Source: Balanoglossus misakiensis
Lineage: Eukaryota; Animalia; Hemichordata
Length of the DNA stretch: 64,000 nt
NCBI GenBank assembly: GCA_040954595.2
Contig: CM082586.2
Coordinates: forward strand, 2,919,124 to 2,983,123
Direction of reading: 5' to 3'
Below the pieces are notes generated by a model. It saw nothing but the letters and a program-made list of their open reading frames with translations, did no database searches and was not told where the DNA came from. Position numbers and translations under genes: made by a program. Position 1 is the stretch's first letter; the number at the start of each line of letters is the position of its first letter. Positions 8,358 through 17,300 of the stretch are shown here, piece after piece.

Positions 8358-11300
8358 ATGAAGAAAAGTAAAATGAAAGGGAAGAAAAAGGCCTCGTCGC
8401 GATTTGACGATGAAGTTGAACAGCAGCAGACGGAGTCACTGCCTGTTTCATTTAAAAACATAAATGAACCCAACAGTGACTTGTTTTTAGAAGCACCGGA
8501 CCTACAGAGCAATATAGCGCCGTCTAAGTCCAGTTTCCAGCTGAAGAAAAAATCAGCAACAGTACCAGCACCACCACCGGGACCGGTGCCGAATTTCGAA
8601 GCACCCACCAAGATTCAGTTCCAGCCGCAACGCAAGGCTGTGCTGCCTGTTGCCCTGGAGAAAAAGAAACGAGTGTTTGCGGCAAAGAAACAGGCCGAAC
8701 CTGCTTACTTCAGCGACGATGAGGATGAGAACGAGAACGAGGAAGAGGATTTCTTGCAGGAGGAATATCAACTGGAGGAGGGTGACTATGAGTCGCTGGG
8801 ATACGCCGAGAATTTTGTCAAAGGTACGCCGTCGCAATTACCGTTCACGGCTGCCGACTTGCAGAAAGCCAAAGTCAAGATAGGGAAAGCCGCAGAGAGT
8901 AAGGAAAAAAAGCTACCAGCAGTAGGTAAGTTTTCCGGGTGTCCCTGCTTTGATGTTTTGCCGCGATCAAACCATCACCATGGCTGCTACATTAGCATGT
9001 GATTGTTAAACACCTGTTGAGTATCATCTGTTTTAAAACAAGATTAATAAATCGTATTTTCTCTTAAAATTCTAGTTGACCTCACAAGAGTGGATTTGTT
9101 GCGAAAACTAGACTCTGTTATTACAAGCCATATTCCAATCCACAGAATGAAGGTAAGACTTAGGTTTGCATAATTATTTGTGAGCTTTTGTATCTCATCA
9201 TAGTGATCTTCTGGCTCGCAATGGCGCCCTCTGTGTCAAGCATTGTATTTTTTTGTTTTTGTTTTTTCAAGCTGGTAAACCAAAACTATGATTCTGGGCT
9301 TGTTATGCCCTGAAAATTTGGGATAAATATATCGAGCAACATACATGCAAAATGCAACATATTTATATTATTTCAACATATTAATATTTAGTTATCACTC
9401 ATCGGGAGACCTGTCTATACTGAATACCTCACCACTCCTTTCACATATGATACCTTGTTCATCTTTTGAAATTAAGAATAAAATGTTTTGTTATGATCAA
9501 TTATATGATCAACTGTAATTTTGTCTTACCAGGATGTTGCTAAGACCGGTTTGCCTGGGAATATGATGAAAAGCAAGATGAGTTTTTATGGAATCGAGCA
9601 GACGACAGACATGGTGATTAAAGTGTGGCTGGACAACTGGACCAAAGAGAAATCCTCAAATTTGATCAGTCTGATGATGCATGGCTGTGTCAATATCACC
9701 GATGTGGCTGTGGAGTGGATTGCTGAAGCTTGTCCCAATCTGCAAACTGTAAGTTATCAATAAGAGGGATTTCCTTGTTCAAACATAATTTTTAAAAGTT
9801 TTGAGTCAATTTGATGATTTCTAAAGATTTCTCAGAGTCAGCCCTATACCTTTGTATGAAGTTTGGATAATTTTCTTGAGTCACCAGTGAGTCAGTGGTG
9901 CATCATATGGGCTTACAGGGCACACTGACCTTTAACTTTGTTTGCTATCTTGATTTACTTTTCTCACCAGGCCATCTTCAGTGGCTGTAGAAACCTCACA
10001 GACCGTTCTCTAGACGTTCTCCTGAAGAAGTGCACTAACCTATGGTACCTGTCAATGGTAGGCACGTCCGTTTCCTCGATCCCCGCTGATGCTGGTCGGC
10101 TGAAGTATCTCAACCTCAAAGGATGTCCTCTACATACTCCCATGAAAGAACAACTGGAGCCAAGAGAGGTTGATGTTGTCCAGTTTACCAGTGATTACTA
10201 CTCGGGTGAGTTACCAATGTTTTTCTTAAGATTACACTGGCAGTAGTTATCATATTTATTGATCATGCACTCATACTATCATTTCTGTACCTCTGTGGTT
10301 TATAGAGAACAAATTTACTTCATACGTTGCTTACAAAATGGTCCTGACTGGAGTTTGTGGTGGAAAGAAAAGTGAACTGGCCAATCAGATGGGGTTGACT
10401 TACAAAGAAAAGGGCAAAATGTGCAGTGTGCATGGAAACTGGACACCCAAGACCAAACAAAGTCCAAACAAGCAGATAGTGTATAATATCATGGAGTCTG
10501 ATGAAAAGGTAAGTGTTACAGTGGATTATTTTGGTCCAAAAATGACCTAGCCTGGTACATTCATTGAGTTACATATGAATTTTGGTCAACCAATCTTACT
10601 GTGTTTTGTTTTTGTTGTTGCTTGCAGTGTGTTCTGGATTTATTTACAAGTGAGAGATGTGTTTATGTCATAACCTGTGACCTGAATGATTCCAAGGCAG
10701 CTGAGAAGTGTGTGGAGTTCATTGGAAGTGTTTTAGTGCAGGTAAGGATGGTGGTATACATGTACATGTATTGTGATATGATCATGGAGACGAGAGGGGA
10801 AAATGATATGAAGGCTATGTTGGGGGTATGATGGTAGTGATGATGATGATGGTAATGGTGATTTCCCCACTGTTAATGGTTTCATGCATGCATACAAACT
10901 GTCACAAGATAAAATCTTATAATTACAAACAAATTTGTATTTTCCAGGCTGTGCATGTGTTCTTTGCGATTGTTGCGACTCATGAAGGCAAAGATGAAAG
11001 TCAGAAGTTGAAATCTCTGGAAAGTCAAGTACTGTCGCTGATGGACAAATGGAAGAAGACACTGGAAGAAAAGAAAGATGTACTAGAAAAGTAAGTTTTT
11101 ATCCTGCCATCCCTGTTTTAATGTGTATGGGTCCATTCATATCATTGAAAACAATGAAGTTGCTATGGTCTCTGTTTTATTTAAAGGAGAATATGTTCAG
11201 ATTTTCCAGTTAATAATAGCCAAATCCTCCCACAAACTGTTACAGTTGTGCTTCAGTATAGACGATTTCTTTGAAACCAAGTGTAAATTCTGTTGATTTA

Positions 11301-14300: not shown

Positions 14301-17300
14301 TGGCTGTGCCATTCTAAACGTAGGTGGAAGTACTGTAAAACAGGTTATTTTCACGAGAGGAAATTTTCGCGATATCAAGAGAGGCCACTGTTACGCGAGG
14401 ATTAATTTTCGCTTTCTCTTATTTCATTTACTGCATCATTATCTCCAAAAATACATTTTATGTGATTTGGAGATAACGGAAACACCCTTTTTTTTCAGCG
14501 ACTGTATCATACAGCACACAAGGGTCACATGGTTCAGACCTCCTGTGTCAGCAGAGACAAGTTTGTGAAGAAGGAAGCAGACAGAGCACAAACCGGTAAC
14601 ATCTTTAACCACGTTAAGAACGAACCGGTCCGAATACTGACAGGCTTCAAGATGAACCCGCTTGGGTGTGATGAATTCTCTGTGCTGGTCGTCAACTGCC
14701 TGAGGAACGGCAACGTGGAAATCGGGTTCAACAAGAATGGAAGCGTTCACAAATGTTCCGTTGAAACGGGCGATATCCTTACCTGCAAGTTGGTCCTGGA
14801 AAAGAGCTCGGATTCAGATGACCTGATCACAAAAGTGAGTGACTGAACTTTGCCATTTTCTTGCAATGTTGGGTATTACACCTGACTGTGTGATTTATAA
14901 CGACTTTTGCATTCAACAGATTAAAGCTCCATTGGTTATAACTTTTCACTATGTTTTTAATATTTTTGTTTTGTATATCTATAGCAGCCCAAAGAACCCA
15001 GCTAATGCCCCTTTAATTTTGTTTTTTTTCGATCAAAGGTGCGCTATTTTAAAAACTTCAAAAAGGAGAAAGAAGAGATCCTTGTAAACGGTGGAGATTG
15101 TGTACCATATTGTCAGCTGACCGGAAATGATAAAGTGACCGTCATGATGCATTCCTCATCCATTCCTGTAAGTACATTGTCTCATTTTGATACAATTTGA
15201 ATCAAAGATTGAATCAAACAAATTTGAATCATAAATCCCACTCATTATCTCAGGTTTGGAGCTCCGTATCGCTGGAGTTTGAGCCCGGAATGCGTTTGGA
15301 AGCCCTGGATGTCAAAAACCCAACCCTGACGTGTGTAGCCACTGTGGTTGAAGTCAACGACCAGGGCCAAATACTGATCCATTTTGATGGCTGGGGAAGC
15401 AACTATGATTACTGGTGTGAACCGACAGACAAGAATTTACATCCACTGGGATACTGCCAGCATCATAAGATTCGCTTACAAGCACCGTATAGTAAGTGCA
15501 CTACCCTTTCACCCCCAGTTCCCTCTTCAGAGGTTCAACTTTATCATAGAAATCAATGGATTTGGACCAAACCATAGTGGGGTTAAAGGGGGAGGATCAT
15601 GTGAACTGCTCATTTGCGACTTAATTCTCAGTCTAGAAAAGACACCGTTGGCATTGTACCCACTGCTGAGGGAGACCCTGTCAGCCAGCCATGTTATATC
15701 AAATTAACTTATCATTTCTTTTGTGTGTCAATTTCTGATAGATTATAGATCTACGAGATCCTCGCAATTCTCTTGGAGTGTATACTTGGAAGAAGTGAAA
15801 TCAGTTGCTGCTCCATATGATTTATTTACTCAGGTGAGTAATTTTGGCAACTAGCAGAACATAGGCCACATTTTATTTGTCAAAATGTGGTGCAACGTTT
15901 TTATCGTGTCACACTTGTATCAACATTGTGATTTTGTTTAAATTTTACACAATTCAAACCACTTGAAATCCTCTATGAGAACAAATGTATATAAACACAA
16001 GTGAAGTCTCATCCAAGATTCACATGTAATGTTACAGGAACAGACTCGCGGTAGTCCACCGTACATGCCTGAACTGGAAGGTAATTTTACACACACTGCT
16101 GGCTTATTTGCGAAGTCTTACAAATGCGATGGCACAGACCCGTTCATGGCAGGTAAGCGTGTGCTGATTTCTGTGAAATTTAAAAATCCCAGGGTACTTA
16201 TGATCACCGCCATCTTGTCTGTTGTTAGGACAGCACATTGCCTTATACGTCGTTGACTGTATACAATTTTTGTAACCAGAGTCTCTGGTTTGGCACATGC
16301 ACATAAGACGATTGTCGCCCTTTAATATATGTTATACAGTAATTCATGCATTTGGTATATTTCTTCACTTTCCCCAGCTTACATGCGTAATCTGGGAAGT
16401 CAGTGGAAATTCCTGACAGAGTACTGGAGGAAAGAAGTTCAAAACCTCAACAAGCAACAGGAAAACAGCCACGGCTCTTTTCTCATCCTTCCGAAAGACA
16501 TCGATGACAGAGCGGCAATTTATCCGTGTCGGAGAATGGTCCACAGTTCTCCGAACTATAATGCGCATTTACTCTGTGATGGAACATGTGAGTAGGAAAC
16601 TTGTGCCGTCTTATCCCCAGTTTCGCTGCAATCTTTCTGCAGTTCTGCTGCGGTTGTTACCATGCAAACATGCAGTGTATCTACAAGTTCAGTGAACCAA
16701 TGGTGCTCACGTTGTTTGTGATAACTCCTTTAATTTTTTGCCATCATTCCGGTAACTTGCAGCATTCCGAGAGATGCATCTGATGGACAAGCCTGGTATA
16801 CCAGTGTCGCCGGATATCGACTTCATGTCGTCCAACAGCATCACGGCCAGTTTCTTTCTCAGCTGTACGATGATGGTGTTCCACAAGACATTCATTCCCA
16901 AGTACGCTTCACTGTTCCCTGCTGTCACGGAGGCAGTTGCACGAGAAAAGGTAAAATGCTATGCAGCCTTGTAAATCAACCATTTTCAGAGGGAATCTTA
17001 GTGGTGTATGTGACAGGGTACCACTCATATTGTCTCACTTCTCTTTGCAGCTGGAGTCAGCATTGCACAGACTGATCTATATGTATGCCATCACCATATT
17101 TGCATATTGGCCTCTACCTAGTCCAGATGATAAAAAAGTGGAACCAAACAAGAGCTGGAACCCAAATGTAAGCTATATGACTTATCTGATATACTCTTCT
17201 CATTCCGCAGTGGTTTTAGCAATGACTTTGATCCTCGTCATCTGTGAAATGTGTTTCATTTTATAACTCGCTAACCTTTGATTCAAACTTGATTAATTGT

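What the first reader, a model, noticed from the sequence alone, without database searches (positions are those of the whole stretch)
10306..17167. N-terminal half is an ancient internal duplicate of the Roco module with a catalytically dead pseudo-Roc
Seen: motif-by-motif collinearity with the second half: KMVLTGVCGGKKSEL vs KLMMVGLGGAGKTSL; FTSERCVYVITCDL vs FLSNRAVYLLLWN; AIVATHEG vs VVGTHAD; VNPVSGQGMDKL vs VSSLTGQGLPDL; LHIMGKILYF vs LHDLGSLQHF; ACPSC vs PCPDC. G3 (DFAGQ) is replaced by IMESDEK and the Walker A motif is broken. Known: Roco proteins act through COR-mediated dimers. Inference: an intramolecular pseudo-Roc-COR/Roc-COR heterodimer could pre-form or auto-inhibit the switch, analogous to pseudokinase-kinase pairs.
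Basis: partly seen in the sequence, partly recalled or inferred. Interest (0 to 1): 0.8.

Follow-up and report, generated by a model that had tools for sequence, protein, structure and literature searches.

The report
Roco protein with dead second switch
This invertebrate gene encodes a predicted giant LRRK2-related signalling protein with a second, full-length Roc-COR module whose GTP-binding motifs are broken; the module is kept in relatives from placozoans to amphioxus, is likely catalytically dead, and would act as a built-in regulator of the working switch.

Summary
A 53-exon gene model (8358-29862, 3157 aa; 50 of 52 junctions colinear with a Ptychodera flava protein) has two Roc-COR modules. 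The first (10306-13880 only, not to 17167) aligns with the second (profile probability 98.7, E 2.4e-16). The P. flava copy folds like LRRK1/LRRK2/CtRoco Roc-COR (Z 20.5, 441 residues). It is family-wide: 61 of 63 long homologues have it. G1, G3 and G4 match the consensus in 1, 0 and 0 of 59 first modules, against 59, 59 and 56 of 59 second modules. Only Trichoplax keeps the P-loop. 'Ancient' and 'pseudo-Roc' are supported. 'Internal duplicate' is unresolved (about 50:50 against fusion of another Roco): the first module has a ~48-residue insert the second lacks, and it scores no better on its own family than on cyanobacterial Rocos. The intramolecular COR-COR dimer rests on analogy alone (about 0.25). 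Prior art: the Trichoplax orthologue was noted as having an N-terminal 'Ras-like' domain, and LRR-Roc-COR-TIR proteins are known. I found no paper that describes a second, dead Roc-COR. Verdict: new variant of a known kind; interest 0.62.

The parts
8358..29862 (+). Predicted gene, 53 exons, 3157 aa: acidic N-terminus - LRR - pseudo-Roc-COR - unassigned - MBT - unassigned - LRR/EF-hand - Roc-COR - TIR - TIR - C-terminal region - CaaX-like end
   Evidence: All 52 introns GT..AG, one open frame; 50 of 52 junctions gap-free against P0090, Ptychodera flava, 3084 aa
9533..10205 (+). N-terminal LRR block (exons 3-4) upstream of the pseudo-Roc; looks like F-box/LRR-type repeats (type recalled, not tested)
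   Evidence: Weak Pfam LRR hits; a similar region in 49 of 62 homologues with over 120 aa before the first module
10306..11591 (+). Pseudo-Roc G domain (aa 366-570) with a two-helix insert between G4 and G5
   Evidence: hhalign; AlphaFold2 model of the P. flava copy; insert spacing 67 here, median 74 in 59 first modules, 26 in 89 of 89 second modules measured
10335..10379 (+). Beta-1 and degenerate G1 (GVCGGKKS; Gly to Lys, Lys-Ser kept)
   Evidence: Sequence
10488..10508 (+). Degenerate G3 (IMESDEK for VWDFAGQ; Asp to Glu, Gly lost)
   Evidence: Glu at this column in 73% of 59 first modules
10966..10989 (+). Degenerate G4 (ATHEG for GTHAD; guanine-reading Asp lost)
11592..12583 (+). Pseudo-module COR-A (aa ~571-755)
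   Evidence: 77% identical to P. flava
13091..13880 (+). Pseudo-module COR-B and C-terminal Cys knuckle (aa ~756-913)
   Evidence: VIA-align match to the LRRK2 C-terminal COR part, 6vp8_B, Z 14.1, rmsd 3.2, 154 aligned
14102..15167 (+). Unassigned region (aa 914-1141), poorly shared across the family; not part of the Roc-COR homology
   Evidence: No Pfam hit at cut-off; matched in at most 3 homologues over most of its length
15269..15833 (+). MBT repeat
   Evidence: Pfam PF02820 E 2.3e-25
16378..17167 (+). Conserved unassigned region (aa 1290-1461)
   Evidence: Matched in 23-28 homologues per 25-residue bin; no Pfam hit in the two exons scanned
17688..19809 (+). LRR block with an EF-hand-like insert
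   Evidence: Pfam LRR_8/LRR_14; EF-hand weak, E 0.068, in P0090
19816..23206 (+). Intact Roc-COR-A-COR-B with G1 GLGGAGKT, G3 DFAG, G4 THAD
   Evidence: Pfam Roc, COR-A, COR-B; 87% and 94% identical to P. flava
23437..26050 (+). Two TIR_2 domains; TIR2 keeps the CxxE Glu (E2635), TIR1 has Gln there (Q2475)
   Evidence: Pfam TIR_2; Glu in 111 of 113 for TIR2 and 1 of 113 (Trichoplax) for TIR1
29848..29859 (+). C-terminal CVIL, a CaaX-like prenylation signal (predicted)
   Evidence: Cys at position -4 in 92 of 120 family members; background Cys 2.2%

Best explanation
The locus is one predicted 3157-residue Roco gene whose first Roc-COR module keeps the full predicted fold but has broken G1, G3 and G4 motifs, so it is likely a pseudo-GTPase that would act as a nucleotide-independent brake or scaffold on the intact second Roc-COR-TIR unit. 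Shown here: two homologous Roc-COR modules in one reading frame; motif loss in the first; co-inheritance of both since before the placozoan-bilaterian split; a P-loop still intact in Trichoplax. Predicted: the Roc-COR fold (from the 67%-identical P. flava copy); no GTP hydrolysis by module 1 (about 0.9); little or no nucleotide binding (about 0.75, lower because Lys-Ser survive in hemichordates); membrane anchoring by the CaaX end. Inferred by analogy: module 2 cycles like CtRoco (nucleotide-free dimer off, GTP monomer on) and drives TIR2, the only TIR with the catalytic-type Glu. Module 1 cannot switch, so it would resemble a permanently nucleotide-free protomer in a fast-evolving N-terminal arm (LRR, pseudo-Roc-COR, variable domain) that restrains module 2 until a ligand moves the arm. 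That it does so by a direct intramolecular COR-B:COR-B contact is the least secure step (about 0.25). Origin by internal duplication or by fusion of another Roco is about 50:50.
For: Gene model. Self-alignment: score 82 against a shuffle maximum of 59 in 1000. hhalign of 59 first modules against 120 second modules: probability 98.7, E 2.4e-16. The first-module profile hits 120 of 120 second modules at E<1e-3; the best reversed control has E 0.83. AlphaFold2 model pLDDT 80.1, pTM 0.81. Foldseek's top 32 listed rows are all Roco structures, best LRRK1 8e05 E 8.2e-17. VIA-align: LRRK2 1330-1858 Z 20.5, rmsd 4.5, 441 aligned; CtRoco 8r4b Z 19.2; best non-Roco Z 12.7. A mollusc first module folds with the same order of elements. 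Motif counts 1/0/0 of 59 against 59/59/56 of 59. Module present in 61 of 63 homologues with at least 1500 aa upstream. Tree: first and second modules form separate groups, Trichoplax branches first among first modules, and several paralogue groups recur in both halves. The module is constrained: 60-77% identity to P. flava against 38% for the acidic N-terminus. Off-state dimer of CtRoco: PMC11052575 (passages), PMC6337361 (sections 9 and 10).
Against: The regulatory step rests on analogy only. First modules evolve fast (mean pairwise identity 17% against 59% for second modules), and the columns they conserve are mostly Gly, Pro and Trp. That pattern fits fold maintenance better than a co-conserved docking surface for the highly conserved second COR. 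About 970 residues lie between the modules. The structure is of the P. flava copy, not the window's own spliced protein. The P-loop keeps Lys-Ser here. Five of the 59 rows had no residues in the G1 segment, so the G1 denominator is slightly generous. Many records lack the first module (41 of 117 upstream parts, mostly short), including the closest Glandiceps model, which starts at aa ~1742, and two long ones, P0105 and P0157. The tree was a quick run without a mixture model and carried long-branch warnings.
Confidence: 0.6

Rival explanations
1. One reading: an internal duplicate that forms an intramolecular pseudo-Roc-COR/Roc-COR heterodimer through COR-B, like a pseudokinase-kinase pair.
For: COR-B is kept with its hairpin and strands in the model and is the best-conserved part of the first module (mean column identity 0.34 against 0.29 for Roc). 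COR-mediated dimers are established (PMC6337361 section 9). One intron is exactly shared (GQ|G) and two more lie within 3 nt, of 9 compared (P about 0.13 for one exact match, about 0.018 for three within 3 nt, the latter criterion chosen after seeing the data).
Against: Low conservation of first-module surfaces. A ~48-residue insert in all first modules, Trichoplax included, absent from second modules. The first-module profile scores own-family second modules at a median of 32.5 bits (best 65) and five bacterial Rocos at 13-33 bits.
Confidence: 0.2
2. Module 1 came from a different Roco clade by gene fusion in an early animal and now serves as an independent, fast-evolving sensor or adaptor that never contacts module 2.
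For: Distinct insert. A different-looking LRR block in front. ESM Atlas neighbours of a bivalve first module are eukaryotic Roc/COR-A clusters (best score 0.93; a lead only). Rapid divergence. Homologues carry varied extra Pfam domains (MBT, PF00622, PF01477, PF00168; their positions were not mapped).
Against: Near-coincident introns. Strict co-inheritance with module 2 in 61 of 63 long homologues suggests a linked function. My one search for stand-alone relatives of the Trichoplax first module found none at E<=0.001 (word-based, insensitive).
Confidence: 0.3
3. Module 1 is not dead: it still binds a nucleotide or phosphate through its P-loop and acts as a second, non-canonical switch or signalling output, as suggested for the Trichoplax protein.
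For: Trichoplax keeps GNRGVGKST. The window and P. flava keep K-S. A Glu is conserved at the G3 Asp column in 73% of rows. PMC4104024 section 5 proposes an output role for the N-terminal Ras-like domain.
Against: G3 Gly and G4 Asp are absent in 59 of 59, Trichoplax included, and most bilaterian copies have no recognisable P-loop.
Confidence: 0.12
4. The two halves are separate neighbouring genes, or the resemblance is chance.
For: The Glandiceps record starts at aa ~1742, and many records lack the N-terminal half.
Against: One open frame with canonical junctions; colinear full-length records from P. flava, amphioxus and Trichoplax; profile and structure matches.
Confidence: 0.03

Closest known systems
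Trichoplax adhaerens TRIADDRAFT_57945 (P0159 here), noted by Civiero et al. 2014, PMC4104024 section 5
   Same: Same family: LRR, MBT, Roc-COR and two TIRs, aligned over 2572 of 3157 residues. The paper notes a Ras-like domain N-terminal of ROC, so two GTPase-type domains in one protein.
   Different: The paper calls it a Ras-like GTPase and a possible output, in Trichoplax only. Here it is a whole Roc-COR (COR-A, COR-B, Cys knuckle), it is family-wide, and it has broken G motifs in all bilaterian copies examined.
Invertebrate LRR-Roc-COR-TIR proteins: Aplysia LOC101848126 (P0077; PMC9334734, passages) and sea-anemone 'Novel Gene 1' (PMC5094078, section 11)
   Same: LRR-Roc-COR-TIR with an MBT or EF-hand, proposed as innate-immune receptors. 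P0077 is in my homologue set and carries part of the first module (aa 30-390, E 9.8e-51).
   Different: In what I read, neither paper mentions a second Roc-COR or a CaaX end. The anemone proteins are drawn at about 1300 aa or less and were not compared here.
CtRoco (PDB 3dpu, 6hlu, 8r4b), LRRK1 and LRRK2
   Same: Roc-COR-A-COR-B fold; LRR before Roc; intact G motifs in module 2.
   Different: One Roc-COR per chain, dimers between chains; LRRKs have a kinase output. This family has two modules per chain, TIR output and a predicted prenyl anchor.
Pseudo-GTPases and pseudokinase-kinase tandems (e.g. p190RhoGAP pseudoGTPase domains, JAK JH2-JH1; recalled, no call)
   Same: A dead copy of a catalytic fold kept beside an active one in the same chain.
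   Different: In JAKs the regulatory contact is shown; here it is inferred. The dead unit is a ~550-residue Roc-COR supradomain, not a lone G domain.

Membership tests
Roc-COR supradomain (module 1) | Ras-like G-domain fold | tested here: met
   Model of the P. flava copy; residues ~5-210 align to small GTPases at Z 11-12.7 and to Roco chains at Z up to 20.5
Roc-COR supradomain (module 1) | COR-A and COR-B directly after Roc | tested here: met
   hhalign 425 columns; VIA-align to CtRoco COR 3dpt Z 17.3, rmsd 4.2, 274 aligned; Pfam COR-A and COR-B each give 2 stretches in P0090 at E<=0.1
Active Roc GTPase (module 1) | G1 GxxxxGK[S/T] | tested here: not met
   GVCGGKKS; consensus met in 1 of 59 (Trichoplax)
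Active Roc GTPase (module 1) | G3 DxxG | tested here: not met
   ESDE here; 0 of 59
Active Roc GTPase (module 1) | G4 [N/T][K/H]xD | tested here: not met
   THEG here; 0 of 59
Active Roc GTPase (module 1) | G2 switch I Thr | not tested
   Variable in Roco proteins (PMC6337361 section 9); not scored
Pseudo-GTPase | No GTP binding or hydrolysis despite the fold | not testable with these tools
   Predicted from motif loss; needs biochemistry
Roco family (whole protein, module 2) | Roc with intact G1, G3, G4 followed by COR, in a multidomain protein | tested here: met
   Pfam Roc, COR-A, COR-B; motifs 59/59/56 of 59
Roco family (whole protein) | COR-mediated, nucleotide-dependent dimer-monomer cycle | not testable with these tools
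   Needs SEC-MALS, mass photometry or cryo-EM
Internal duplicate of module 2 | Module 1 is sister to module 2 to the exclusion of other Roco clades | tested here: inconclusive
   Only five bacterial outgroups; profile scores do not discriminate; introns 1 exact and 2 near of 9; insert differs
Invertebrate LRR-Roc-COR-TIR (MBT) proteins | LRR-Roc-COR-TIR architecture, homology to Aplysia LOC101848126 and Trichoplax 57945 | tested here: met
   Second module 59.5% and 58.8% identical to P0077 and P0159

The most novel reading that the evidence does not exclude
A pan-invertebrate family of membrane-anchored Roco receptors carries its own dimer partner: a dead Roc-COR that folds back onto the active Roc-COR through COR-B and mimics the nucleotide-free off-state dimer of CtRoco in one chain. 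It gates an enzymatic TIR output, and Trichoplax preserves the earlier stage with both P-loops and both TIR glutamates. It would be a natural single-chain Roco pseudo-dimer and a direct test of the dimer-monomer model used for LRRK2.
Probability: 0.25. Interest if true: 0.85.

Novelty: new variant of a known kind. Interest (0 to 1): 0.62.

Why it matters
How dimerisation relates to the GTP cycle of Roco proteins is debated (PMC6337361 section 10) and bears on LRRK2. A natural chain with one live and one dead Roc-COR lets the role of a nucleotide-free partner be tested by deletion and domain swaps between these invertebrate modules. The module is nearly invisible to Pfam, so about 550 residues of a widespread candidate immune-receptor family are unannotated. 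Trichoplax against bilaterians also gives a graded record of pseudo-enzyme formation: G3 and G4 lost, G1 kept.

Tried and rejected
Pfam on single exons of module 1 found no Roc or COR hit (0 of 10 exons). Pairwise BLASTP between modules was weak (E 0.004). A representative search with exon 12 gave 3 repetitive, irrelevant hits. A search for shorter stand-alone relatives of the Trichoplax module 1 found none among 7997 candidates. Complex prediction of P. flava module 1 with module 2 gave no answer (score 0.00, alignments not used); this is no evidence either way. AlphaFold2 on a 1200-residue stretch of the Mercenaria record P0111 holds both modules, starts after the first strand of the pseudo-Roc, and probably misses exons in the record. 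It folded both modules (pLDDT 74.6) with pTM 0.51, about what two independently placed modules would give by my rough estimate; with 27 rows and no contact output I draw no verdict. No RNA holder was listed for 13000-22900. No whole genome is held. The intron test and the tree did not settle duplication against fusion, because no LRRK, DAPK1 or MFHAS1 sequences were available as usable records. Rejected: duplication extending to 17167; a recent or lineage-specific duplication (the modules are 18% identical to each other, against 67% to the P. flava module 1); two separate genes.
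Full report
Gene model. The window is animal DNA with short introns; no whole genome is held. From sequence and stop-to-stop frames I built a 53-exon model on the + strand, 8358-29862. All 52 introns are GT..AG and the frame is open for 3157 codons. The nearest full-length record is a Ptychodera flava protein (P0090, 3084 aa): 3046 residues align and 50 of 52 exon junctions are gap-free. The source is therefore likely an acorn worm (inference from named homologues). 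The order is: acidic N-terminus, LRR, module 1 (aa 366-913, nt 10306-13880), unassigned region, MBT, unassigned region, LRR/EF-hand, intact Roc-COR (aa ~1896-2368), two TIR_2 domains, C-terminal region, CVIL.

Observation. Every motif pair quoted is present and in order. Module 1 against module 2 scores 82, against a maximum of 59 in 1000 shuffles. BLASTP and Pfam on single exons barely see it or miss it.

Family. Two homologue searches listed 73 and 120 proteins (best 120 of 161). Of 124 proteins of 1000 aa or more, the window's included, 120 had a full second module. An iterated profile seeded with module 1 and run only on the parts upstream of module 2 hit 76 of 117. It hit 61 of 63 with at least 1500 aa upstream and 71 of 77 with at least 1200; the misses among the 63 are P0105 and P0157. 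Carriers include Trichoplax, rotifers, Macrostomum, annelids, Lineus, Lingula, many molluscs, Plectus (partial), Ptychodera and Branchiostoma. No vertebrate or arthropod appeared among the listed hits.

It is a Roc-COR. A profile of 59 first modules of 430 aa or more, against 120 second modules, gives probability 98.7 and E 2.4e-16 over 425 columns. That profile finds 120 of 120 second modules at E<1e-3, while the best reversed control has E 0.83. AlphaFold2 on the P. flava module 1 (67% identical, 28 rows) gives pLDDT 80.1 and pTM 0.81. Foldseek lists only Roco structures in its first 32 rows (LRRK1 E 8.2e-17, LRRK2, CtRoco, MbRoco2). VIA-align gives Z 20.5, rmsd 4.5 over 441 residues to LRRK2 1330-1858, with the best non-Roco at Z 12.7.

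It is predicted to be dead. G1, G3 and G4 match consensus in 1, 0 and 0 of 59 first modules, and in 59, 59 and 56 of the 59 second modules of the same proteins (five rows had no residues in the G1 segment). The exception is Trichoplax P0159 (GNRGVGKST), which still lacks the G3 Gly and G4 Asp. In the window the P-loop keeps Lys-Ser, so residual phosphate binding is not excluded. Mean pairwise identity is 17% for first modules and 59% for second. Module 1 is still 60-77% identical to P. flava, against 38% for the acidic N-terminus.

Ancient yes, duplicate unresolved. In a quick tree of 22 proteins (both modules) and 5 bacterial Rocos, first and second modules form separate groups (SH-aLRT 100 and 99), Trichoplax branches first among first modules, and several paralogue groups recur in both halves (no mixture model, long-branch warnings). 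So the two-module build predates the placozoan-bilaterian split. For duplication: of 9 introns, one coincides exactly and two lie within 3 nt (P about 0.13 and, post hoc, 0.018). Against: first modules carry a two-helix insert between G4 and G5 (median spacing 74, minimum 47, against 26 in 89 of 89 second modules measured). The profile also scores own-family second modules (median 32.5 bits) about as well as the best bacterial Rocos (13-33 bits). Atlas neighbours of a bivalve module 1 are other eukaryotic Roc/COR-A clusters (lead only). That MFHAS1- and DAPK-type Rocos have a similar insert is recalled, not tested.

Mechanism. In CtRoco the nucleotide-free form is a COR-mediated dimer and GTP drives monomerisation (PMC6337361 sections 9 and 10; PMC11052575 passages). 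A module that cannot load GTP would resemble the off-state partner, so I commit to a brake or scaffold role (0.6 for the whole explanation; about 0.25 for a direct intramolecular COR-B contact). Fast surface evolution of module 1 weighs against a tight conserved interface. Two further features shape the model. 92 of 120 family members end with Cys at -4, a CaaX-like signal. TIR2 keeps the CxxE Glu in 111 of 113, while TIR1 has it only in Trichoplax; that this Glu is catalytic in TIR NADases is recalled.

Prior art. PMC4104024 (section 5 part 1 of 2, passages and figure legends) names TRIADDRAFT_57945 as having a Ras-like domain N-terminal of ROC and calls two GTPase domains in one protein novel. 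PMC9334734 (passages) lists Aplysia LOC101848126 as an LRR-ROC-COR-TIR-MBT protein. PMC5094078 (passages, section 11, supplement passages) describes anemone LRR-Roc-COR-TIR genes. I also saw passages of PMC11378527, PMC8195603 and PMC3995007. Nine literature searches, of which I saw listings and read the papers named, showed no description of a second, dead Roc-COR. The library lacks most subscription papers, including Marin et al. 2008 (cited in PMC4104024, not seen). I did not see figures, the rest of section 5 of PMC4104024, or the supplements of PMC9334734 and PMC4104024, which may bear on domain assignments.

Verdict. Real and family-wide; a new variant of a known kind. Interest 0.62; 0.85 if the single-chain pseudo-dimer proves true.

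Noticed in passing
window 29848-29859 and homologues: CaaX-like C-terminus in 92 of 120 family members; prenylation of a Roco protein is not mentioned in the passages I read.
   Followed up: partly
window 23437-26050: A second live/dead-looking pair: TIR2 keeps the CxxE Glu (111 of 113), TIR1 has it only in Trichoplax.
   Followed up: partly
window 16378-17167 (aa 1290-1461): Conserved region with no Pfam hit, shared by about 23-28 homologues; fold not examined.
   Followed up: no
window 14102-15167 and homologues: The slot after module 1 is poorly conserved; family members carry varied extra Pfam domains (MBT, PF00622, PF01477, PF00168), positions not mapped.
   Followed up: no
window 4330-5937 (-): 535-codon LRR open frame upstream on the opposite strand, with a possible Death-like exon at 3330-3800 (domain recalled, not scanned).
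   Followed up: no
window 32038-33096 (-): Single-exon rhodopsin-family GPCR, Pfam 7tm_1 E 2.8e-34.
   Followed up: partly
window 35040-36107 (-): Open frame with two death effector domains, Pfam DED E 4e-28; my notebook entry gives the strand wrongly as +.
   Followed up: partly
window ~36900-40400 (-): Glycosyl hydrolase family 65 gene, Pfam E 1.9e-19 for the exon at 38960-39730.
   Followed up: partly
window ~41500-43300 (+): Spliced gene with a P-loop-like GAPSHGKSS motif; three frames gave no Pfam hit at E<=0.001.
   Followed up: partly
window 44003-64000: 88-bp AT-rich satellite, about 220 copies at 97-98% match, with an orientation switch at about 54554.
   Followed up: no
window 12600-13030: Long GA-rich microsatellite in intron 11, inside the pseudo-COR coding region.
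   Followed up: no
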